A DNA stretch of 64,000 nt, from positions 32,001 through 96,000 of the forward strand of contig JANRIL010000042.1 of assembly GCA_033764955.1 (NCBI GenBank), given 5' to 3'. Each line of letters opens with the position of its first letter. The first letter of the stretch is position 1. The translations under genes were made by a program, and so were the position numbers. The stretch comes from Cyanobacteriota bacterium. Its GTDB lineage: Bacteria > Cyanobacteriota > Cyanobacteriia > Thermostichales > Thermostichaceae. The notes under the pieces are model-generated. The model was not told the DNA's origin. It did no database searches and was given only the letters and a program-made list of their open reading frames with translations. Shown here piece by piece: positions 43,994-54,961 of this stretch.

Positions 43994-44077
43994 AGCAGAT
44001 GGGGATGAGCGAGGGTAAAAATTCTGGAGGAGAAGCCATAAGCATGGGGGATAACAAGCCGGAGGAATGGGGGATCC

Positions 44078-44692
44078 CTATTCCGCTTGCACTTCCGACG
44101 GCAGCTCTGAGCTTGGGGTTTCTGTTTCCGCTTCTTCTGGCAAGTCCATAGCCGGTCGGCTCAGCAAAGCTGCCCACAAGCGCTGGGCACCATATTTACT
44201 GCTGTAAAAGAGCAGATCCAATAAAATTCGCAGAGCCAGTTCAGTAATTTGATCAGCGGAGCGCTCCTCGCCATCCACCATACGGCTGCGGTAGTGGGAA
44301 TGAAACTCGTCAAGATAGTCGCCGATCAGCGCCTCCCGAAAGGGGGAGCGTTCCTGGGCGACGGCGGTTTCCAGATGCTCAATCGTGGAGCGCAACTTGC
44401 TGTGCCAGTCGAGGGCAAGGTGGCAGATGATCAACACCAGGGCACGCGCCTCTTCGATATCGACTTTCTTGCGTCCACCGGAACTGCGCCGTAGAGGGTT
44501 AGCGTTGCGGAGTCGCCAGAGGTTCACCCGGTCACTCACCCACTGCTCTAATTTGAGGGCTTGAGCGGCATTTAAGACTGCCTCTGAGCTTTCCCCACTT
44601 AGGCACTCTAACCCCAGTAACAAGAGATCGAGTTGGGCTTTGATGGTGCCCGAAGCTGTTGGGATCCCTTCGGGTAACCCTAACGCCTGCAT
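44078..44692 (-). CDS. DUF3038 family protein (likely start MQALGL at 44692)
   Basis: QLDLLLLGLE, DRVNLWRLRNANPLR, EEARALVLII, LLFYS..G..RLW. Confidence 0.88.
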   Translation of the reverse strand: MQALGLPEGIPTASGTIKAQLDLLLLGLECLSGESSEAVLNAAQALKLEQWVSDRVNLWRLRNANPLRRSSGGRKKVDIEEARALVLIICHLALDWHSKLRSTIEHLETAVAQERSPFREALIGDYLDEFHSHYRSRMVDGEERSADQITELALRILLDLLFYSSKYGAQRLWAALLSRPAMDLPEEAETETPSSELPSEVQAE

Positions 44693-45127
44693 AATTGACT
44701 GGTTTGCGTCCACAATGATCCTATCAACACTAACTCCCAAACCCTTATCGTCTCCTGTCTGGGAAAAACCCGCAACCCTAGCCTCCTTTCGGAAGGGGGT
44801 GAGTTGAGGGGGAAAAGACGGCCAATCGCCAGCCCAAGCCTCTGGGAAAGGAGTTGCGGCAGTCAGAGCTATCGGCATCGCCACCATCCATCGTGAAGTC
44901 CAACATCTTGACTGTAATAGGCTGACTTCATCCCAGGCGGCTAGTTGCAGAAAGTGCAACCAAATGATTCGCAAGATCTGAGCTATAGGGGGATCCCAAC
45001 TATCCATCGGCAGGGATCAAAACGGCAAAACCCTGTGGTCTAAAACCTGCCCCAGTCTATCCAACCCATGCTCTAGCTTGACGGTTTCATTCCCACTGGG
45101 CTTATCAATACCGAAGGAGGGAATCAG

Positions 45128-45216
45128 GCAGAACGTTCGCGTTCACTGGACGCAGATAACATCTTGCACCTATAGATATCCTCTCGACGGTCGGCGTGCA
45201 TGAGCGTTGTTAGCTG
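45128..45216 (-). mobile_element. attC-like integron recombination site (89 bp) downstream of the two-gene insert
   Basis: Minus strand CAGCTAAC (R'') ... T(G)CAC/GTGA pairing with an unpaired G ... GTTCTGC (R'); imperfect hairpin of attC size. Confidence 0.65.
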
Positions 45217-45368
45217 GATGTTTTGTAGCAGAACTCTGAAAGCCGGCACATAGACATTTCCTCTAACCATTGGAATACGACCACCTAAATCTTGATATCC
45301 AAACTTTGAGAGGTTTTGGGGTTCTCAAACTAAATTGGAACGCCTATAAGCACAAAGATTTATCTATC

Positions 45369-45854
45369 TTAATTAAAAAGAAACGGCTTAACAGAAGAAA
45401 TCATACGTTTCAACTCAGTTTTGTTGTGCCTGAGAAGATCATGCTCCCATAATCCATCAGTATTATCAGAACAATTAGCTGAAAGAGCCTCTCCAATTGA
45501 TTCCAAACTCTTTCCAAGGCTGCTTCTTAACTCCTCTGGATTAGATAAGACTCCAAGGACAAACACCCTGTCCTTTACATCATCTGGAATCTGTTGCTTT
45601 ACGTAACCAAGGCGATCTTCTTCTCTATCAAAATCAATAAGTAATACAAACCGCCTATTCGGATACTTACGCATTGTAGGTATAAAGCTTGTTGTGAACT
45701 TATCTACTACTACCTTCCATCCACCGACATAGGACAAAACTTGAATTGATCGTGCATTCAGTTGAGGATGAAGCAAAAACCCATTTGCTATGTCTGAGTT
45801 CGCCTCATCTTCGGGCAACACAAGAATATGTGGCAAGTACTTGTTAACGCTCAT
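45369..45854 (-). CDS. Small TOPRIM-like protein, partner of the adjacent ATPase
   Basis: HILVLPED (strand then Glu), GGW turn, VLLIDFD (DxD); ATGA overlap with the ATPase stop. Confidence 0.7.
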   Translation of the reverse strand: MSVNKYLPHILVLPEDEANSDIANGFLLHPQLNARSIQVLSYVGGWKVVVDKFTTSFIPTMRKYPNRRFVLLIDFDREEDRLGYVKQQIPDDVKDRVFVLGVLSNPEELRSSLGKSLESIGEALSANCSDNTDGLWEHDLLRHNKTELKRMISSVKPFLFN

Positions 45855-46954
45855 AACTCTGTATCACCAAGGATTAAGCTATCTATAAGATCGCCACTAA
45901 TAGATACTTCACTCAGTGATCGGATCAAAGTTGGTTCTAGATGGCTTTTCCTGTCAAGCAAAAAAGTGTTTTCACTCGAAAATTTTCGGATAGCCTCCTG
46001 ATTGTGCGAAGTTGCCAAAAGTTGCCCACTATTTTTGAAAGAACGTCGTAGTGAAACAATGAAATGTCCAACCTCTGATAAAGAGAGATAGTTGTCAGGC
46101 TCGTCCCAAAAGCAAAAAAGCGGACCGTAGTGTTTGTTGGCAGCCAGGACAACTGCACAAAGGAAAAAGCATTTCTCTCCATCAGATAAGTCTTTAAATT
46201 CAATAGTAAAGTTTCTATCATTCTTTTCAAAGCTGACGATCGTACTCTTGAAGTTTCTGCTGACCGATTGATTTTGAATATCGCTAATATCAGGCATTAC
46301 TACTTGAAGATATTTCTTTATCTCTGTATAAGCAGCGGGATAACGGCTCAGCAAGCCTGAGAACCACTCTCCAAAATTTGAACCATCTCGCTTTGGCTCC
46401 AAAGTTTCACCCTGGGAGTCTCCAGTTATCAAGCTCGGAATTGGAGCTAGAATAATCATTCGTGCAAGCCAAGTTCTGAAAATACAGAGCGGATCAGTTT
46501 CCGATTGTTCCTGAATCACCGGAAGAGCAATAAGATGCCAATCCATTAAGAACTGAGCCTCTGGATTGCGTGAAGTGAGAGTGACTTGGGCTTCTTTTCT
46601 AGAGTAAACTGACTTTCCTGAAACTAGTAATTGTTCTTCAAACACCCGAAGTTCTCTGAAATCTTCTGGCAACTCCAGTGCAAGCATATACTTATACAAC
46701 TTATTTTTAATTAGCACCTCTATTTCAAATCGAATTGGGACATTAGATCTGTTAGGGGAAAAGTCTTTGGGTTGAACCAGTTGCCTAACTCTATTGACAC
46801 CTCGACCAATGCTCTGAAATAGCTCTAGTGAACTAGCAATAGTTGATTTACCTGCACCGTTTCTTCCGATTAAAAGAGCAGATGACATTTCCCTAAGAGA
46901 AAATTCAAAATTTTCCAGACATCTGAAGTTGTGTACATACAGCCTTTGGAGCAT
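45851..46954 (-). CDS. Soluble ABC-type ATPase (AAA_21/AAA_15-like)
   Basis: VHNFRCL N-terminus, Walker A GRNGAGKS, signature LSDGEK, Walker B/D-loop FWDEPDNYL, H-loop TSHN; likely start MLQRLY. Confidence 0.92.
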   Translation of the reverse strand: MLQRLYVHNFRCLENFEFSLREMSSALLIGRNGAGKSTIASSLELFQSIGRGVNRVRQLVQPKDFSPNRSNVPIRFEIEVLIKNKLYKYMLALELPEDFRELRVFEEQLLVSGKSVYSRKEAQVTLTSRNPEAQFLMDWHLIALPVIQEQSETDPLCIFRTWLARMIILAPIPSLITGDSQGETLEPKRDGSNFGEWFSGLLSRYPAAYTEIKKYLQVVMPDISDIQNQSVSRNFKSTIVSFEKNDRNFTIEFKDLSDGEKCFFLCAVVLAANKHYGPLFCFWDEPDNYLSLSEVGHFIVSLRRSFKNSGQLLATSHNQEAIRKFSSENTFLLDRKSHLEPTLIRSLSEVSISGDLIDSLILGDTEL

Positions 46955-47072
46955 AGAAAAGTAACTCTGAGTTCTTGGAAAATAAAGGTTTTTGAGACAA
47001 CCTAATTTAATCAATTTACACTATTGACAACTCTTAGCGAAGCTGTATACGGAACCCAGAGACTCTGAGGCT

Positions 47073-47097
47073 TCCAGCTAACAACAGGCTAAGCGGC
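47073..47097 (-). mobile_element. Right half of an attC-like site upstream of the insert
   Basis: Minus strand GCCGCTTAGCCTGTT-GTTAGCTGGA resembles an L'-spacer-R' end; its core is the reverse complement of the R'' at 45206-45218. Confidence 0.55.
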
Positions 47098-47130
47098 AAG
47101 GCTGTCCTACGCCAGCAAGGGTAGAGCCAG

Positions 47131-48300
47131 CTAGCAACTGGCCAATACCCGTAAAATTTCACTGGCGGCTCGATCCAAAACCCCCGGCTCCCCTAACGCT
47201 AAGCGCATCTGCTGATAGTCCTGCTGCATCTGTTGACGGCGTTGGGGGTTAGTCAGGAGCGCCAGGGCTTCCTCCGCAATCCGCGAGGGTTGCGCCTCCT
47301 CTTGAAACAGTTCCGGCACAATCAGACGCATCTGTACCAAATTAGGGGGAGACATAAACGGGATGGAAAAATTGAGGATCGTTTTGCCAATCCAATAAGT
47401 GAGGCGGCTGACCCGATAGACCACCACCTGCGGGATCCCTAAAATCGCTGACTCCAGGTTGACGGTTCCCGATTTCGCCACAATCAAATCTGCTGCCGCC
47501 AAGATCGTCTGGTGTTCGCGGGATCCCTGTGGTTTGAGCAGGGTAATCTCAATCTCCTGCTGTTTAGCCAACTTTAAGAGAGGGGGAGCAAACCGCTCTG
47601 CCGCCAAGGGCAACCAAAACTTCACCTGAGGAAGCTGCTGTTGGAGGAGACGAGCCGCCGCGAAAATGACGGGAGCCACATGCCGCAGTTCTTGATTGCG
47701 AGAGGCCGGGAATAGCATGACCGCCATCTGATCCGCCGGGATCCCCAAATGCTGGCGAGCCTGAAGGCGATCGGGGGCGGCAGACAGAATATCGAGGAGG
47801 GGATGCCCAACCCAGCGCACATTTCCTCCGGCAGCTTCATAAAACTCGGCCTCTTGGGGAAAGATGGCCAGCATCAAGCGCATCCGTTCCGCCAATTGAA
47901 AGCTAATGCGCGAGCTAGTCGTCCAAATCCATTCTTGGGGAGCAATGTAATAGATGGCGGGGATCCCTTGGCGCTGGAGAACCGATGAAAGGCGACTGTT
48001 CACCCCGATGTAGTCTACCAAGACACACAAATCCGGTCTGTCTCTAGCTAAAAAGCGACGAATCCGCCACTCCACCCAAAGGGCGGGGCCAATAAAGGGT
48101 AGCGCCTCAACAATGCCAATCGAGCTGATCGCCGTCGTTTTTTGCAGGAGGGTGGCTCCCGCCGCCGCCATCCGCTCCCCCCCCACGGCAGTAATGCGGA
48201 GATGGGGATCCCGGCGGAGCAGGGCTTGAATTAAATAGCTCGCTTGGAGATCCCCTGAGATTTCTCCGGTGCAAACCAACAGATGGGGGGAGTTTGCCAT
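47131..48300 (-). CDS. lpxB: Lipid-A-disaccharide synthase
   Basis: GEISGDL, YYIAPQEWIW, VGHPL, PASR.QE, KSGTVNLE. Confidence 0.96.
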   Translation of the reverse strand: MANSPHLLVCTGEISGDLQASYLIQALLRRDPHLRITAVGGERMAAAGATLLQKTTAISSIGIVEALPFIGPALWVEWRIRRFLARDRPDLCVLVDYIGVNSRLSSVLQRQGIPAIYYIAPQEWIWTTSSRISFQLAERMRLMLAIFPQEAEFYEAAGGNVRWVGHPLLDILSAAPDRLQARQHLGIPADQMAVMLFPASRNQELRHVAPVIFAAARLLQQQLPQVKFWLPLAAERFAPPLLKLAKQQEIEITLLKPQGSREHQTILAAADLIVAKSGTVNLESAILGIPQVVVYRVSRLTYWIGKTILNFSIPFMSPPNLVQMRLIVPELFQEEAQPSRIAEEALALLTNPQRRQQMQQDYQQMRLALGEPGVLDRAASEILRVLASC

Positions 48301-48350
48301 AACCATACATCACACTCTGTCAAGAGTTGCCTGCGGATCCCGGTCTGGAC

Positions 48351-50683: not shown

Positions 50684-50965
50684 CAGGTGAAGCCGCATCA
50701 GAGTAGCACACTTAACCGAGTGAGTCCCAGCCAGAGGGATCCCTGGACAAGTCAGCAGAATGGTTTCCTAACATTTCACAAACCTGAGTTTTTCTCAATT
50801 TTGCCTCAGGAAGTAAATCGACCCTGGTAGCATAAGGGGGGGTAGCGCCCTGTTTTGTTCACCCCTTTGTTTGAGACGCTTAGTCTCTTAAATCCTGATC
50901 AGCCGCTTAGTTTTCAATCAAAATTTTGACGTTGGTGTGTACCGTTTTGGAATGGAGGCAGCATC

Positions 50966-51598
50966 ATGTTTAATGAAAACCCTAGAGATCCAGCAACGCT
51001 AATTAGTCAAGGATACACGTTTCAGCCCACGCAATATATTGGTCAAGGCTGGGAGATCTTGAAGCCGATTTTGGGTCTGATGATTGGGTTTACGGTAGTC
51101 AGCATCATCATTAACATTGGCTTGGGTTTTATCCCCAGAGCTGGCAGTCTACTCAGCGTCGTGATCGCTGGTCCCTTGAACGCTGGTTTTTTCATCGTTG
51201 CCTTCCGGCATATCCGTCGCCAGTCTACTGACTTTGCCCGTTTCTTTGATGGCTTTCAGAATTTTCTACCCCTATTTTTAGCCAACCTACTGGTTACCAT
51301 TTTTACGGCGATTGGCACGCTTCTGCTAATTCTGCCCGGAATTTATCTGGGGGTTTCTTATCTATTTGCGTTGCCGTTGGTTGTGGATCGCAACCTAGAT
51401 TTTTGGGAAGCTATGGAAACTAGCCGTCAGGTGGTGGGGAAAAACTGGTTTGGGGTGTTCATTTTTGGTCTGTTGCTGGTTTTAATCAATGTTGCAGGAG
51501 CCCTCCTCTTGGGAGTGGGGCTTTTGTTTACGATTCCTTTAACGACCTGTGCGGTGGTAGCGGCTTATCGGGATATTTTTGGCCTGCGTACAGCGTAG
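50966..51598 (+). CDS. Integral membrane protein (DUF975/YciC-like)
   Basis: Multiple TM helices, LLILPGIYL, EAMETSR motif; GGAGG RBS. Confidence 0.75.
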   Translation: MFNENPRDPATLISQGYTFQPTQYIGQGWEILKPILGLMIGFTVVSIIINIGLGFIPRAGSLLSVVIAGPLNAGFFIVAFRHIRRQSTDFARFFDGFQNFLPLFLANLLVTIFTAIGTLLLILPGIYLGVSYLFALPLVVDRNLDFWEAMETSRQVVGKNWFGVFIFGLLLVLINVAGALLLGVGLLFTIPLTTCAVVAAYRDIFGLRTA

Positions 51599-51674
51599 TG
51601 AAAATACGGCGCAGTTCATGAAACATAGGCAGCTACTGGCTTGAGTGAGGCAATTCAGACTATTGTTGGGGTTT

Positions 51675-51959
51675 TCATTTTAGGGGGTGAACCTCTGTGA
51701 GCAATTTTTCTACACGTGCTTCATCTACGCGGGTGGTTAGTCGTTGGGATTCCTGTTGATCTCGCAGGGTTTTCGCTAACGTAAATGAAGAGGTGACGGC
51801 GTAGAGTAAGCCAATTCCGACAAATGCTTTTTGCCAAGCATCGGTTTCCAGATAAAGGATCCCGACCGTAGCTGCCGTTGTAGAAATTATAAAGGAGGCC
51901 CACACTTGTAAAACCCAGCTTGTTGTGTCTTTTGCCCGACCAATTGTAATGTGTTGCAT
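51675..51959 (-). CDS. YiaA/YiaB-family two-helix inner membrane protein
   Basis: W..QVW.SF...GILYL..D.W.KAF...SSFTLAKTLRD; AGGAGG upstream of MQHITI. Confidence 0.82.
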   Translation of the reverse strand: MQHITIGRAKDTTSWVLQVWASFIISTTAATVGILYLETDAWQKAFVGIGLLYAVTSSFTLAKTLRDQQESQRLTTRVDEARVEKLLTEVHPLK

Positions 51960-52117
51960 AGGAACCTCCTTGCTCTCTTCCAATTCATGGGTCTCGTTCA
52001 CCCGATGCTTTTGATGATAGTGAGCCAATGGGGAGATAGATTGAGAAGAATGGACAGATTTATAACTGTCCACCCTATGGTTGATTGGCTGCCAATGTTC
52101 CCGATTCCTTACCCCAG

Positions 52118-52753
52118 ATGCTCATAACCTACCCCGATCCAGACAACCCCCACCCCTTAGCAGAGTTCCCTCAAGTTTGTTTTATCAAAAATACAGTTTC
52201 TAATCCCAATATTATTGTTGGAGACTATACCTACTATGATGATCCTGAAGATTCTGAAAATTTTGAGAGAAATGTGCTGTATCACTTTCCATTTATTGGC
52301 GACAAGCTAATCATTGGCAGGTTTTGTGCTCTTTCAAGAGAAATTAAATTCATCATGAATGGGGCTAACCACAAAATGTCAGGGTTCTCAACCTACCCAT
52401 TTGAAATTTTTGGGCAGGGATGGCAACAAATCCAGCCTCAACCTCATGAATATCCCTTTAAGGGGGATACGGTAGTTGGTCATGATGTTTGGATTGGCTA
52501 TCGATCGGTTATTATGCCGGGGGTTCAAATCGGAAGTGGAGCGATTATTGCCGCTAATGCAACGGTTACTAAAGATATCCCCCCCTATACGATTGTTGGA
52601 GGTTGCCCAGCCACAGCGATTCGGCAACGCTACCCAGACTCCGTAGTTGATGCCCTGCTAGCGATTGCTTGGTGGGATTGGGAGATCGAGAAAATTACTC
52701 GCAACTTGCATCATATTGTGGGCGGTGACCTGGCGGCGTTACAAGCCTGTTAA
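52118..52753 (+). CDS. Vat/CatB-like xenobiotic O-acetyltransferase (hexapeptide repeat)
   Basis: NIIVGDYTYYDD, DKLIIGRFC, FIMNGANH, STYPF, GHDVWIG, WWDW. Confidence 0.92.
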   Translation: MLITYPDPDNPHPLAEFPQVCFIKNTVSNPNIIVGDYTYYDDPEDSENFERNVLYHFPFIGDKLIIGRFCALSREIKFIMNGANHKMSGFSTYPFEIFGQGWQQIQPQPHEYPFKGDTVVGHDVWIGYRSVIMPGVQIGSGAIIAANATVTKDIPPYTIVGGCPATAIRQRYPDSVVDALLAIAWWDWEIEKITRNLHHIVGGDLAALQAC

Positions 52754-52927
52754 TCTTGCAAAAGCATCACTCTTATGGGTTAAAGAAGAGATGTTTGAGA
52801 GCCTTTTGACCAGGGATCCGCTTTGCTCGCAATGAAACACAGAATCATTGGGGAGCAATCTTTGCGCTAGGCCAAATAAGAAAATAATGGATCCCGAAGC
52901 AAGGTAGGATCAGTAGCGCTTGAGTCT

Positions 52928-53194
52928 ATGCGGTTTCCCTATCAGTTTGATTATCTGGAGGAATCACTTGTGGAACTAGGTCTTAGTCAACGGGAACTCT
53001 CTGACCTTACCCAAAAGTCAGTGCAGTTCATTTTAAGTGGGCGTGAAGGCGAAAGTGAAGCCTTAACCCAGTACAAAGCATCTGCTGAGTTCCGTGCCGG
53101 AGTTCAACTGGCTTGTGCGGCGATGGTCTTGGTTTTAGCCGAAAATAACAGCCGGATTACCGAACAACTACAGGCATCTGGGATCCTCAAGTAG
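52928..53194 (+). CDS. Hypothetical protein (88 aa)
   Basis: ORF co-oriented with and 16 bp upstream of aspA; helical composition. Confidence 0.65.
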   Translation: MRFPYQFDYLEESLVELGLSQRELSDLTQKSVQFILSGREGESEALTQYKASAEFRAGVQLACAAMVLVLAENNSRITEQLQASGILK

Positions 53195-53210
53195 TCAAGA
53201 TGAGCTTGCT

Positions 53211-54638
53211 ATGACCTCACCAGATCACCCACTGGATCATCCATCTGATCATCGAATTGAGCGTGACTCAATGGGGGAGCGGCAGCTTCCCAACCATGTT
53301 TATTACGGGATCCAAACCTTAAGGGCTATCGAAAACTTTCCGATTAGTGGAATCAAGCCCTTGCCCATCTATGTTGACGCCTGTTTGCTGATCAAAAAGG
53401 CTGCTGCTCAAATCAATGCCCATTTGGGTTGCATTCCAGATCAGGTGGGATGGGCGATTGTGCAGGCTGTCGATGATATCTATGGACAGGCTAGCTGGCG
53501 GGATCAATTTGTGGTGGATATCTATCAGGCGGGGGCAGGCACCTCCCACCACATGAATGTCAATGAGGTTTTGGCCAATCGCGCCCTAGAATTGCTGGGA
53601 GATCAAAAGGGCAATTATCAACGCATTAATCCCAATGATCACGTCAACTATGGACAGTCTACCAACGATGTGATTCCGACGGCGATTCGTTTGGCGGCTT
53701 TGCTGACCCTTTATCAACGGCTGCTCCCCACCCTAGTCCGCCTGACTGAAACCCTCCGAGGCAAAGCCCAACAATTTCGAGACATCATCAAGGCAGGACG
53801 CACCCACTTGCAGGACGCCGTTCCGGTGCGCTTGGGAGATGAATTTGCAGCCTATGCCTGGATTATTCAAGATCATCACCGCCTCATCTCCCAGGCTGCT
53901 TTGGAGTTGGAATGGATGGGGCTAGGGGGAAGTGCCGTGGGAACGGGGGTGAATACCCATCCCGAATATCGGGATGATGTAGTGGCTCGCCTAGCCGCCC
54001 TCACAGGATTCAATCTCAAGCCTGCTAATCACTTTATGGCGGCGATGCAAAGCATGGCTCCTTTTGTTCATTTGTCGGGGTGTTTACGCAATCTGGCTCA
54101 AGACAGTCTTAAGATTGCCAATGACCTGCGCCTGATGGATTCAGGGCCGACCACAGGGCTGAAAGAAATTCAACTGCCACCGGTACAGCCGGGATCCTCG
54201 ATTATGCCGGGGAAGTATAACCCTGTCATGGCAGAAATGCTGAATATGGTTTGTTTTCAGGTAATGGGATTAGACAGTGCTATCGGCATGGCGGCACAGG
54301 CTGGACAGTTTGAACTGAACGTGATGATGCCCTTGATTGCCTACGATCTGCTGCACAGTTTAGAGATTCTCAGCAACGCCCTAGAGGCTTTTCGGGAGCG
54401 CTGCCTGGAGGGTATTACGGCGATGCCCCAACGATGCCAAGCTTATGCCGAAAGTACCCTTTCGTTGGTGACGGCTCTCAATCCCCACATTGGTTATCTA
54501 AATGCGGCTGAAGTCGCCAAAACTGCTCTAGCGACCGGGCGCACCATTCGAGAGGTCGTCCTAGAGCGAGGCTTGATGAGTGAGGAGGAACTCGCCACAA
54601 TTTTGGATCTGGCAACCATGAGCCAGAGCTTCTGGTGA
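53211..54638 (+). CDS. aspA: Aspartate ammonia-lyase (fumarase/aspartase superfamily)
   Basis: RIERDSMG, YYGIQTLRA.ENF, QAGAGTS, GRTHLQDA, GSSIMPGKYNP; class II fumarase not excluded. Confidence 0.85.
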   Translation: MTSPDHPLDHPSDHRIERDSMGERQLPNHVYYGIQTLRAIENFPISGIKPLPIYVDACLLIKKAAAQINAHLGCIPDQVGWAIVQAVDDIYGQASWRDQFVVDIYQAGAGTSHHMNVNEVLANRALELLGDQKGNYQRINPNDHVNYGQSTNDVIPTAIRLAALLTLYQRLLPTLVRLTETLRGKAQQFRDIIKAGRTHLQDAVPVRLGDEFAAYAWIIQDHHRLISQAALELEWMGLGGSAVGTGVNTHPEYRDDVVARLAALTGFNLKPANHFMAAMQSMAPFVHLSGCLRNLAQDSLKIANDLRLMDSGPTTGLKEIQLPPVQPGSSIMPGKYNPVMAEMLNMVCFQVMGLDSAIGMAAQAGQFELNVMMPLIAYDLLHSLEILSNALEAFRERCLEGITAMPQRCQAYAESTLSLVTALNPHIGYLNAAEVAKTALATGRTIREVVLERGLMSEEELATILDLATMSQSFW

Positions 54639-54716
54639 GCTTTTAAATTCTCACAGAATTACAGCTTGCTCACGAATTATCTATGACACGCAAGGGATCC
54701 GACTCCCCGCAAATCC

Positions 54717-54762
54717 CTCCTAACAAGAGGGACTTTACATCCGCGTTCCCTCTTGTTAGGAG
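54717..54762. repeat. Perfect 16-bp inverted repeat within a cyanobacterial dispersed-repeat-like element between convergent genes
   Basis: CTCCTAACAAGAGGGA-N14-TCCCTCTTGTTAGGAG. Confidence 0.8.
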
Positions 54763-54961
54763 AAGCTACGGCTATCGCCACGCCGCGGGAAAGGGTAGAT
54801 CTTAGGCCATAACAGACAACTCCTGAATAGGCCATATCGATAAAAAATAGAGGGATCCCACTCCCTAAGTCATGTCTATCTGGCAATAGATGATACGGAT
54901 AGATCATCTAGATCATCGTCCAGATCGTTCATACTGATCATTTTGGGATCCCTAGAGGGGG

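What the first reader, a model, noticed from the sequence alone, without database searches (positions are those of the whole stretch)
45128..47100. Solitary integron-like gene cassette inserted between lpxB and the DUF3038 gene, with no integrase nearby
Seen: an AT-rich block free of the host GGGATCCC palindrome (nearest copies about 44990 and 47433) interrupts housekeeping genes. Its two minus-strand genes are bracketed by a perfect 13-bp inverted repeat, GTTGTTAGCTGGA (45206-45218) and TCCAGCTAACAAC (47073-47085). On the gene strand the unit starts with G|TTAGCTG and ends with CAGCTAAC...hairpin...GTTCTGC. Established: an integrated integron cassette begins with the TTRRRY of its own R' box, complementary to the R'' box after its genes, and ends in an imperfect 60-140 bp attC hairpin with an extrahelical base. 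Inference: this is a cassette delivered by attC recombination and now stranded without intI. The cores deviate from the strict RYYYAAC/GTTRRRY consensus and the upstream site is only a half or degenerate site.
Basis: partly seen in the sequence, partly recalled or inferred. Interest (0 to 1): 0.8.

Follow-up and report, generated by a model that had tools for sequence, protein, structure and literature searches.

The report
Lone integron cassette carrying defence-like genes
A 1.9-kb mobile integron gene cassette, carrying an ATPase and a nuclease-like partner that look like an anti-phage pair, sits alone between two housekeeping genes of a cyanobacterium whose own integrons lie elsewhere in the genome.

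Summary
Window 47081->45134 (minus strand, 1948 nt, GC 0.40 against about 0.55) is an integron gene cassette.

Evidence:
- A covariance model built from 16 other attC-like sites of this genome, without the window copy, gives one hit in the 64-kb window. It is full length, on the gene strand, just downstream of the two genes (45217->45124, 28.3 bits, E 1.7e-5).
- The same cassette (88-90% identity) occurs in four other cyanobacterial genomes. All start at G|TTAGCTGGAAGCC and, where the attC is whole, end at ...AACG|TT, with unrelated flanks. One copy lies in an attC array.
- In the window, the site upstream is neither attC nor attI, and the site downstream of the G|TT is host DNA. This fits the known 'SALIN / attG' route.

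- The cassette is not without an integrase. The genome has two intact integron integrases and about 62 attC sites on other contigs.
- A 77-nt MITE copy interrupts the cassette.
- The cassette's L box looks decayed.

The cargo is an ABC-type ATPase plus a 161-aa Toprim-like protein of an unnamed family, resembling HEC-01, AbiL and PARIS.

No empty site could be found. This is a new member of a known kind.

The parts
45134..47081 (-). The cassette as a unit: from the TT of G|TTAGCTGG (47081) to the G of the R' core (45134). 1948 nt, GC 0.40.
   Evidence: Homology with copies in G397, G216 and G155 starts at 47082 (47085 in G216) and ends at 45132 (in G155 the second BLAST segment stops at 45181; its attC end is placed by the model hit). 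The junction table shows unrelated flanks. Length.
45124..45217 (-). attC site. R'' CCAGCTAAC at 45217-45209; L''/L' arms; R' CG|TT with the crossover between 45134 and 45133.
   Evidence: Only hit of model R1 in the 64-kb window: 28.3 bits, E 1.7e-5, model positions 1-90 of 90. It is 76% identical over 79 nt to the attC at C7:1066 of the same genome.
45206..45218 (.). Left arm of the 13-bp perfect inverted repeat (R'' box plus flank).
47073..47085 (.). Right arm of the inverted repeat. It comprises the first bases of the cassette (47081-47073), the junction G (47082) and 3 nt of host flank.
45270..45346 (.). 77-nt copy of a dispersed MITE-like repeat, inserted between the small gene and the attC.
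   Evidence: Absent from the orthologous cassettes in G397, G216 and G155. There are 30 BLAST hits elsewhere in the genome, 74-95% identical. An alignment of 23 copies shows inverted ends TATAGTCATTCCAA.
45369..45854 (-). 161-aa protein of an unnamed family, Toprim-like. Conserved residues E15, D16, D74, D76.
   Evidence: No Pfam, PADLOC or NCBIfam hit. 770 clusters at 50% identity. AF2 pLDDT 92.9. Best structural match is the Toprim part of OLD nuclease 6p74_A, Z 7.3.
45851..46954 (-). 367-aa ABC-type ATPase (AAA_21/AAA_15). The listed 387-aa ORF starts at a TTG at 47014, but homologues start at the ATG at 46954.
   Evidence: Pfam AAA_21 2.5e-17, AAA_15 3.4e-13. PADLOC AbiLi 7.3e-25, HEC-01A 2.6e-19, AriA 2.7e-16. 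Homologues are 367 aa long.
46955..47081 (-). 127-nt cassette leader, shared with the cassette copies but not with the non-cassette copies of the gene pair.
   Evidence: Homology with G034 and G032 stops at 46990 and 46963. Homology with G010, G397, G216 and G155 runs to 47082-47085.
47082..47130 (-). Upstream junction G (47082) and the 48-nt spacer to the lpxB stop codon. Not an attC or attI.
   Evidence: R1 with filters off gives only 5.1 bits here. No similarity to anything else in the genome, including the attI regions.
45008..45133 (-). Downstream host flank, beginning with the target's TT (45133-45132) and running to the DUF3038 start codon.
   Evidence: GC returns to host level. No homology with the other cassette copies.
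47131..48306 (-). lpxB, intact. Last gene of an lpxC-fabZ-lpxA-lpxB run on the same strand as the cassette.
   Evidence: Pfam LpxB 8.6e-88, profile positions 2-363 of 374. ORFs. The names of the upstream genes are my reading of the translations.
44078..45007 (-). DUF3038 gene, intact, downstream of the cassette on the same strand.
   Evidence: Pfam 1.1e-54.

Best explanation
This is an integron gene cassette that left an integron and was inserted alone into the chromosome, 48 nt downstream of lpxB.

Proposed mechanism:
1. An integron integrase (IntI), encoded elsewhere in the same genome, excised the cassette as a circle.
2. IntI then recombined the folded bottom strand of the cassette's attC with a double-stranded non-att site containing G|TT. 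This is the 'attG' route, and it yields a 'SALIN', a single attC site lacking an integron integrase.
3. The crossover left the cassette's own TTAGCTGG... at its 5' end and the host's TTCTGCC after the attC's G.
4. The 13-bp inverted repeat is therefore the two halves of the R''/R' pairing, separated by linearisation.

What is shown: attC family membership, shared G|TT junctions in five genomes, intact intI genes, and arrays of the same attC family.

What is inferred: the recombination event itself, its direction, and that read-through from the co-oriented lpx genes expresses the cargo.

Later events: a MITE copy inserted into the cassette, and the L box of the attC drifted.

The cargo is a two-gene ABC-ATPase plus Toprim-like pair. 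It most likely acts as an OLD/PARIS/HEC-01-like anti-phage module, in which the ATPase senses and holds the partner and the partner is a metal-dependent nuclease. This function is inferred, not shown.
For: 1. Independent attC model.
- Alignment A1 holds 16 attC-like sites of the genome, window copy excluded.
- My R-box/L-box structure pairs 74% of cells, against 27-44% when the partners are slid. In the L box, 8 of 9 pairs change on both sides.
- Model R1 gives 1 hit in the 64,000-nt window, at 45124-45217 on the minus strand. It is full length, 28.3 bits, E 1.7e-5.

2. The family is a true integron attC family.
- Two ORFs exceed the TIGR02249 cut-off of 265 bits: 463 bits at C9:19-960(-) and 451 bits at C38:63588-64529(+).
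- Each is followed divergently by attC hits 0.6-3.8 kb apart: C9 at 1692, 2534, 4235, 5002, 5682 and 6463 on the plus strand; C38 at 61743, 57852 and 54712 on the minus strand.
- The genome has 79 matches, which I merge to 62 distinct sites.

3. Same unit, same ends, other places.
- 5 of 30 loci that carry the small gene have an R1 hit just downstream of it.
- G397, G216 and G155 hold the cassette at 88-90% identity, from window 47082 (47085 in G216) to the attC end at about 45132, apart from the 77-nt MITE.
- In the junction table, 5 of 5 copies start at G|TTAGCTGGAAGCC after unrelated DNA. 4 of 4 copies with a whole attC end at ...AACG followed by TT and unrelated DNA.
- The G397 copy lies in an array of 5 attCs on a 5.3-kb contig.

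4. The target is non-att.
- There is no attC upstream: 5.1 bits with filters off.
- There is no likeness to the genome's attI regions.
- The target-derived bases are G (47082) and TT (45133-45132). This fits the 5'-GWT-3' consensus reported for attG sites (passages of bioRxiv 10.1101/2022.09.11.507474).

5. Folding. The reconstituted excised attC folds at -19.5 kcal/mol on the bottom strand, z -3.65, with 0 of 300 shuffles as low.

6. Cargo.
- The partner's best structural match is the OLD Toprim domain, Z 7.3, rmsd 3.9, 125 residues aligned.
- D74 and D76 are invariant, and E15 and D16 nearly so.
- 2 of 61 relatives hit HEC-01B (best E 2.5e-4) and 1 of 61 hits DUF4276.
- Predicted complex: weak support, score 0.34 against 0.00 for the best of 3 controls. 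That mark was reached by 116 of 157 solved complexes and 2 of 215 mismatched pairs. At 0.60 or under it was reached by only 18 of those 157 and by both mismatches that passed. The runs agree in at least 89% of contacts, and partner pLDDT is at least 87.
Against: - No empty site was found. lpxB and DUF3038 are not adjacent in any of the 40 relatives searched or in 5 metagenome loci. Insertion is therefore inferred from junctions, not seen.
- The window attC scores near the bottom of its family: 28.3 bits, against 75 and 58 for the orthologous sites in G397 and G216. Genome-wide its E-value is only about 1e-3. Its L box pairs poorly.
- RNAalifold found no consensus structure on A1 (0 pairs), so the structure used is my own.
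- The integrated site folds no better than shuffles: z -0.44 and -0.46, with 64 of 200 shuffles as low.
- The 48 nt upstream contain ...GCCGCTTA..GTTG|TT. By eye this resembles an L'-R' end, and the lpxB stop region resembles the cassette start (84% over 19 nt, repeat D6). A decayed older site cannot be excluded.
- Two of the comparison copies are not clean non-att insertions. In G155 the 165 nt upstream are 79-83% like DNA next to an intI gene.
- No promoter is predicted above chance: 4 found, 4.1 expected.
- The Toprim assignment is tied with lumazine synthase folds (Z 7.2 and 7.0), and the window protein itself hits no defence HMM.
- HEC-01 gave no protection in the one published test (passages of bioRxiv 10.1101/2024.01.29.577857).
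Confidence: 0.8

Rival explanations
1. Remnant of a cassette array or of a rearranged integron. The cassette once had neighbours (or an attI) here. Deletions or an inversion removed them and brought lpxB next to it, so there was no direct insertion at a non-att site.
For: - lpxB-DUF3038 adjacency is unique to this genome among the 40 relatives searched, so the cassette sits at a synteny break.
- The upstream 48 nt weakly resemble an L'-R' end, and the lpxB stop region resembles the cassette start (repeat D6).
- The genome has many small attC clusters and intI fragments at contig ends.
- G010's copy shows that attC parts do get deleted.
Against: - The model finds nothing upstream, even with filters off and with the stretch cut so that a truncated hit could score (5.1 bits).
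- There is only 1 attC in 64 kb and no intI or intI fragment on the 196-kb contig.
- Both flanking genes are intact and at host GC.
- Relatives are only 65-70% identical, so lost synteny is expected anyway.
Confidence: 0.14
2. A transposon or MITE-like element whose 13-bp inverted repeats are its terminal repeats.
For: - A perfect 13-bp inverted repeat brackets the two genes.
- A genuine MITE family is active in this genome.
Against: - The left arm is not terminal. Conserved element sequence (the attC) continues 84 nt beyond it, to 45134.
- There is no direct repeat at the ends apart from the GTT core.
- There is no transposase.
- The repeat is explained by R''/R' complementarity.
Confidence: 0.02
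3. A small genomic island acquired by another route (homologous recombination of flanks, or another recombinase). On this view the attC is a passenger, not the agent.
For: - The gene pair also occurs without a recognisable attC: 25 of 30 loci, including G034 and G032.
- The pair is patchy, present in 35 of 401 genomes searched.
Against: Both ends of the foreign DNA coincide to the base with the integron crossover point G|TT, in this genome and in the other copies.
Confidence: 0.04

Closest known systems
[quoted passage not shown] Source: Loot et al., bioRxiv 10.1101/2022.09.11.507474 (passages read). Single attC sites and CALINs in Cury et al. 2016, PMC4889954 (passages read).
   Same: - One cassette with one attC, no att site or intI nearby, inserted in ordinary chromosomal DNA.
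- Crossover at G|TT within a 5'-GWT-3' target.
- intI present elsewhere in the genome.
- Co-oriented with a resident operon that could express it.
- The G010 copy has lost most of its attC. That paper proposes such loss (attC deletion by replication slippage) as a route to 'domestication'.
   Different: - The published mechanism was shown with class 1 IntI in E. coli and V. cholerae. Here the host is a cyanobacterium with its own IntI and a divergent attC family.
- The event here is inferred, not observed.
- The cassette is two genes long and holds a MITE.
Sedentary chromosomal integron cassettes with homogeneous attC sites (for example Vibrio VCR arrays; recalled, not from a call).
   Same: - A genome-specific, fairly uniform attC family of about 90 nt.
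- Arrays divergent from intI.
- An attI ending in GTTAGGC or GTTAGCC.
   Different: - The sites here are scattered over 23 contigs in small clusters and singletons, not one large array. The assembly is fragmented, so this may be overstated.
- The same attC model also hits three other cyanobacterial genomes tested with it: 19, 32 and 6 matches at E <= 0.001, both strands counted.
ABC-ATPase plus TOPRIM defence pairs: HEC-01 (bioRxiv 10.1101/2024.01.29.577857, passages), PARIS AriA/AriB and the OLD family (PMC11464382, passages), and AbiL.
   Same: - An AAA_15/21 ABC ATPase followed by a small protein with a Toprim-like fold and acidic E...DxD residues.
- Overlapping genes and patchy distribution.
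- ATPase hits AbiLi, HEC-01A and AriA models.
   Different: - The 161-aa partner matches no AriB, AbiLii or HEC-01B model itself. Only 2 of 61 relatives touch HEC-01B.
- It is half the size of AriB.
- No defence activity is known, and HEC-01 itself gave none in the published assay.
Phage-defence cassettes in integrons. Source: Kieffer et al., bioRxiv 10.1101/2024.07.02.601719 (search listing and start of abstract only).
   Same: A defence-like system packaged as an integron cassette.
   Different: That work concerns mobile integrons of clinical bacteria. This cassette is cyanobacterial and lies outside any integron.

Membership tests
Integron gene cassette | An attC site immediately 3' of the ORF(s), on the same strand. 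| tested here: met
   R1 hit at 45217->45124 on the minus strand, 152 nt after the small gene's stop. It is the only hit in 64 kb.
Integron gene cassette | Inverse core RYYYAAC (R'') and core GTTRRRY (R'). | tested here: inconclusive
   The AAC/GTT triplets and their spacing are present. The 7-mers read AGCTAAC and, in the family, GTTAGCT, so one position of each departs from the strict consensus at most sites of this genome. IntegronFinder's own model was not available.
Integron gene cassette | Imperfect L''/L' pairing with extrahelical bases. | tested here: inconclusive
   For the family: the L box has 78.5% of cells paired, 8 of 9 pairs covary, and one unpaired column lies inside it. The orthologous sites in G397 and G216 show the bulged G and A by eye. 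The window copy pairs poorly in the L box, and RNAalifold gave no structure.
Integron gene cassette | Unit boundaries at G|TT, shared by copies in different contexts. | tested here: met
   5 of 5 copies share the 5' end. 4 of 4 copies with a whole attC share the 3' end. Flanks are unrelated.
Integron gene cassette | Same attC type in arrays next to an integron integrase. | tested here: met
   TIGR02249 scores of 463 and 451 bits (cut-off 265), with divergent arrays on C9 and C38. The G397 copy lies inside a 5-attC array.
Integron gene cassette | IntI-dependent excision and integration through the bottom strand. | not testable with these tools
   Needs an experiment. No sequencing run was listed to look for circles.
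SALIN / attG insertion | A single attC, with no other att site and no intI nearby. | tested here: met
   1 attC in 64 kb. No TIGR02249 match on contig C5. The upstream site is not attC or attI.
SALIN / attG insertion | Target with 5'-GWT-3' at the crossover. | tested here: met
   The target-derived bases are G at 47082 and TT at 45133-45132.
SALIN / attG insertion | An uninterrupted target in a relative (empty site). | not testable with these tools
   No relative with lpxB next to DUF3038 was found among 40 genomes and 5 metagenome loci.
OLD-like ABC ATPase + TOPRIM defence pair (HEC-01 / AbiL / PARIS) | An ABC ATPase of the AAA_15/AAA_21 type. | tested here: met
   Pfam AAA_21 2.5e-17, AAA_15 3.4e-13. 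PADLOC AbiLi 7.3e-25, HEC-01A 2.6e-19.
OLD-like ABC ATPase + TOPRIM defence pair (HEC-01 / AbiL / PARIS) | A partner with a TOPRIM fold and metal-binding acidic residues. | tested here: inconclusive
   - Best match is the OLD Toprim domain, 6p74_A, Z 7.3. It is tied with lumazine synthase at Z 7.2 and 7.0.
- Foldseek finds OLD C-terminal regions at E about 7e-3.
- E15 lies after strand 1 and D74-x-D76 after strand 3, and these are conserved.
OLD-like ABC ATPase + TOPRIM defence pair (HEC-01 / AbiL / PARIS) | Partner recognised by the family's own HMMs. | tested here: not met
   The window protein has 0 PADLOC and 0 Pfam hits. Only 2 of 61 relatives hit HEC-01B and 1 of 61 hits DUF4276. I therefore say it works like these systems and do not file it as a member.
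Transposon / MITE bounded by the 13-bp repeat | Terminal inverted repeats at the true ends, a target-site duplication, and a transposase or matching autonomous element. | tested here: not met
   The element continues 84 nt past the left arm. There is no duplication at the junctions and no transposase.

The most novel reading that the evidence does not exclude
One defence-like cassette (an ABC ATPase plus a Toprim-like protein of a so far unnamed family of 770 clusters) is caught in several stages of the integron life cycle across cyanobacterial genera:
- inside an array (G397);
- next to an attI-like site (G155, perhaps G216);
- inserted at ordinary chromosomal sites (this window, G010);
- losing its attC (G010).

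On this reading, attC x genome-site insertion is a routine natural route by which cyanobacteria fix anti-phage genes next to housekeeping operons, and the pair is a new OLD-like defence system.
Probability: 0.4. Interest if true: 0.65.

Novelty: new member of a known kind. Interest (0 to 1): 0.45.

Why it matters
Isolated cassettes (SALINs) were counted in genomes, and their formation at non-att sites was shown in the laboratory with class 1 IntI. Natural cases that can be traced are still worth having.

In this case the same cassette can be followed, base for base, from an array to solitary chromosomal sites in different cyanobacterial genera. The host still carries intact integrases and about 62 attC sites. 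That makes three things directly testable:
- whether a non-proteobacterial IntI uses genome sites;
- whether solitary cassettes can return to the integron;
- how attC sites decay after capture.

The case also flags a widespread, unnamed Toprim-like partner of an ABC ATPase as a candidate anti-phage effector in cyanobacteria.

Tried and rejected
- Rfam, E-value mode, 44000-48000: two chance-level hits and no attC family.
- RNAalifold on A1: 0 pairs. I used a hand-drawn structure and tested it by pair counts.
- Folding of the integrated site, both strands: no better than shuffles.
- My first join of the excised form doubled the G. It was corrected.
- An internal GTTATCTG was considered as R'. 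Rejected once the family alignment showed it to be a conserved loop motif.
- Sequencing runs: none was listed, so no reads could be laid to look for circles or empty sites.
- Empty site search:
  - 40 relatives;
  - metagenome scan with DUF3038, giving 5 loci at 60-64% identity, none with lpxB;
  - relatives of G155, for its copy. None found.
- Genome-contig scan with the single small protein: only 2 loci at 66% identity, not used further.
- R1 on the G010, G034 and G032 loci: no attC beside the gene pair, with one hit at E 0.82.
- Half-attC upstream of the cassette: 5.1 bits.
- Small protein: PDB sequence search gave nothing below E 0.16. NCBIfam gave nothing over a cut-off. Foldseek against PDB gave no match at E <= 0.001.
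- Promoter and terminator scan: 4 promoter-like sites against 4.1 expected, and 0 terminators.
- Earlier findings of this scan: none for this genome.
Full report
**Observation**

The sequence features are as described.
- The 13-nt perfect inverted repeat lies at 45206-45218 and 47073-47085.
- GC falls to 0.38-0.44 between about 45150 and 47099, from 0.49-0.61 outside.
- The host's over-represented GGGATCCC is absent between 44997 and 47432. It has 79 copies in the window against 2.6 expected. A larger gap elsewhere shows that this alone proves little.
- Two overlapping minus-strand genes fill the block. They lie between intact DUF3038 and lpxB genes.

**The genome does have integrons**

A search of the whole assembly with the integron-integrase model TIGR02249 (cut-off 265 bits) gave:
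- two uninterrupted matches, at C9:19-960(-) with 463 bits and at C38:63588-64529(+) with 451 bits;
- several fragments, mostly at contig ends;
- no match on contig C5, which holds the window.

The control genomes gave no match over the cut-off.

**An attC family**

A search for the core motif turned up many sites of about 90 nt with the layout ...GCTAAC / G.AGCGG. / ... / .CCGCT. / CGTTAGCTGG.

I aligned 16 of them, leaving out the window's copy (A1).
- RNAalifold predicted no consensus structure, so I drew the R-box and L-box pairs by hand and tested them.
- 74.2% of cells pair, against 27-44% with the partners slid by 1-3 columns.
- The covariation score is reached by 0 of 500 shuffles.
- In the L box, 8 of 9 pairs change on both sides, and one unpaired column lies inside it.

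The covariance model R1 built from this finds 79 matches in the genome at E <= 0.01. I merge these to 62 distinct sites.

Six sites follow the C9 integrase and three follow the C38 integrase. In both cases they are divergent from the gene and 0.6-3.8 kb apart, as in a classical integron.

Between integrase and array, both loci have a palindrome followed by GTTAGGC or GTTAGCC, a plausible attI.

**The window's site**

R1 has exactly one hit in the 64-kb window: 45217->45124 on the gene strand, all 90 model positions, 28.3 bits, E 1.7e-5. With filters off the E-value is 1.2e-6.

It starts 152 nt after the stop of the second gene. It is also 76% identical over 79 nt to the site at C7:1066, one of three clustered sites there.

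Where the family reads CG|TTAGCTGG, the window reads CG|TTCTGCC. The cassette's own TTAGCTGG... is found 1.9 kb away, at 47081. This is what linearisation of a circle at G|TT produces, and it explains the 13-bp inverted repeat as separated R''/R' partners.

Folding:
- The integrated site does not fold better than shuffles (z -0.44 and -0.46).
- The reconstituted excised form does: bottom strand -19.5 kcal/mol, z -3.65, 0 of 300 shuffles as low.

**Comparative proof of the boundaries**

The small gene occurs in 35 of 401 cyanobacterial genomes sampled. Of the 30 loci returned, 5 (own included) have an R1 hit just downstream of it.

In G397, G216 and G155 the DNA is 88-90% identical to the window from 47082 (47085 in G216) to the attC end at about 45132, apart from window 45270-45346 (the G155 BLAST alignment itself stops at 45181). 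G010 has a further copy, split over two contig ends.

The junction table shows:
- 5 of 5 copies begin at G|TTAGCTGGAAGCC after unrelated DNA;
- 4 of 4 copies with a whole attC end at ...AACG, followed by TT and unrelated DNA.

The contexts differ.

| Copy | Context |
|---|---|
| G397 | Inside an array of 5 attCs on a 5.3-kb contig |
| G155 | Only attC in 19 kb, with intI about 2 Mb away on the same contig. The 165 nt upstream are 79-83% like DNA beside an intI gene, so probably an attI-like site |
| G010 | Between ORFs that read like an aldolase and a pyruvate kinase (my reading of the translations). Only the R''-L'' part of the attC is kept |
| Window | 48 nt after the lpxB stop |

Cassette lengths are 1871-1875 nt elsewhere and 1948 nt here.

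**The upstream site is not an att site**

- R1 with filters off scores 5.1 bits there, also when the stretch is cut so that a truncated hit could score.
- The flank matches nothing else in the genome, the attI regions included.
- The two target-derived pieces are G (47082) and TT (45133-45132). This fits the 5'-GWT-3' consensus reported for 'attG' sites (passages read, bioRxiv 10.1101/2022.09.11.507474).

By eye the 48 nt resemble an L'-R' end, and the lpxB stop region resembles the cassette start (84% over 19 nt). I therefore keep a decayed older site as a rival.

**What could not be done**

No empty site exists in the data at hand.
- lpxB and DUF3038 lie apart in all 40 relatives searched. 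In the single-contig genomes G019 and G001 the matches are more than 1 Mb apart.
- The 5 metagenome relatives of DUF3038 (60-64% identity) keep its downstream neighbour but have no lpxB.
- No sequencing run was listed.

**Later changes**

Window 45270-45346 is a copy of a dispersed MITE-like repeat. It has 30 BLAST hits in the genome. An alignment of 23 copies shows inverted ends. It is missing from the orthologous cassettes.

The window attC scores 28 bits, against 75 (G397), 58 (G216) and 34 (G155). Both L-box arms have drifted.

**Cargo**

Gene 1 is a 367-aa ABC-type ATPase.
- Pfam: AAA_21 2.5e-17, AAA_15 3.4e-13.
- PADLOC: AbiLi 7.3e-25, HEC-01A 2.6e-19, AriA 2.7e-16.
- Homologues start at the ATG at 46954.

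Gene 2 (161 aa) has no Pfam, PADLOC or NCBIfam hit.
- It belongs to a family of 770 clusters at 50% identity. Those of the best 120 homologues that carry a source name are all called hypothetical protein.
- The AlphaFold model is confident: pLDDT 92.9, pTM 0.86.
- Its best match is the Toprim part of Thermus OLD nuclease: 6p74_A, Z 7.3, rmsd 3.9, 125 residues aligned. This is tied with lumazine synthases at Z 7.2 and 7.0. Gyrase Toprim domains follow at Z 5.4-5.9.
- Foldseek lists OLD C-terminal regions at E about 7e-3.
- E15 sits after strand 1 and D74-x-D76 after strand 3. D74 and D76 are invariant, and E15 and D16 nearly so.
- 2 of 61 relatives hit HEC-01B and 1 of 61 hits DUF4276.

A complex prediction gave weak support.
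- Score 0.34, against 0.00 for the best of 3 controls.
- That mark was reached by 116 of 157 solved complexes and 2 of 215 mismatched pairs. At 0.60 or under it was reached by only 18 of those 157 and by both mismatches that passed.
- The runs agree in at least 89% of contacts, and partner pLDDT is at least 87.

ABC-ATPase plus TOPRIM pairs are a known theme of anti-phage systems (PMC11464382, passages). HEC-01 is such a pair, but it gave no protection in its published test (bioRxiv 10.1101/2024.01.29.577857, passages).

**Comparison with what is known**

- Cury et al. 2016 report integrons in Cyanobacteria, CALINs and 431 single attC sites, and name secondary-site integration as one possible origin (PMC4889954, passages).
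- Loot et al. define SALINs, show attC x attG insertion and excision by IntI1, and suggest attC loss as a route to domestication.
- Defence genes in integron cassettes have been reported (bioRxiv 10.1101/2024.07.02.601719; listing and start of abstract only).

The finding is therefore a new member of a known kind. It is well documented by natural copies in several states, and it has a cargo of an unnamed family.

**Verdict**

- It is an integron cassette: about 0.93.
- It reached this place by IntI-mediated recombination with a non-att G|TT site: about 0.75-0.8.
- Its cargo is an anti-phage ATPase-nuclease pair: about 0.5.

Noticed in passing
window 45270-45346; other copies e.g. G000 C23:77894-77970, C18:41575-41651: A MITE-like repeat of about 100 bp with inverted ends TATAGTCATTCCAA. 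BLAST finds 30 hits in the genome at 74-95% identity. The copy inside the cassette covers 77 nt, and the sequence next to it resembles the missing end. G010 has a related repeat at the same place in its copy of the cassette.
   Followed up: partly
G000 contigs C9:1-6600 and C38:54700-64600: Two complete integrons with near-identical layout. Each has intI, a palindrome TATACGGAAA(A)TTTCCGTATA followed by GTTAGGC or GTTAGCC (a likely attI), then arrays of 6 and 3 attCs. Further intI fragments lie at the ends of C36, C4 and C30 and at C38:182.7 kb.
   Followed up: partly
G000 C1:44899, C14:53626, C28:79098, C34:29063, C35:96392, C45:57577: Other solitary attC hits with the same signature as the window: GC 0.37-0.43 on the cargo side and 0.52-0.55 beyond the R' core. 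This suggests several more lone cassettes in this genome.
   Followed up: no
window 50743-54852: The longest GGGATCCC-free stretch of the window (4.1 kb), with GC down to 0.42 at 52000-52499. There is no attC hit there. It may be another foreign segment.
   Followed up: no
window 47074-47092 and 47127-47145: A direct repeat, 84% identical over 19 nt. The lpxB stop region (GTTGCTAGCTGGCT on the gene strand) resembles the cassette start and the family's R' core. Unexplained: it may be chance, or the trace of an older att site.
   Followed up: partly
L013:4592-4663 and L014:6734 (G010): G010's copy of the cassette keeps the 5' junction and the R''-L'' part of the attC, but lacks the rest. It abuts the stop codon of the neighbouring gene, so this copy looks immobilised. 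Both contigs break inside the cassette.
   Followed up: partly
L072:9878-11071 (G155): In G155 the ATPase gene of the cassette reads as two ORFs (222 and 168 aa), so that copy is probably broken. The 165 nt upstream of that cassette recur 79-83% identical at three other places of the genome, one of them 67 nt from an intI gene.
   Followed up: partly
G010, G034, G032 (whole genomes): The attC model built from this genome also hits other cyanobacterial families: 19, 32 and 6 matches at E <= 0.001, both strands counted. All three genomes have integron integrases over the cut-off. This attC type is therefore shared widely among cyanobacteria.
   Followed up: partly
window, whole: GGGATCCC occurs 79 times against 2.6 expected. 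It is a HIP1-like iterated palindrome of this lineage.
   Followed up: no
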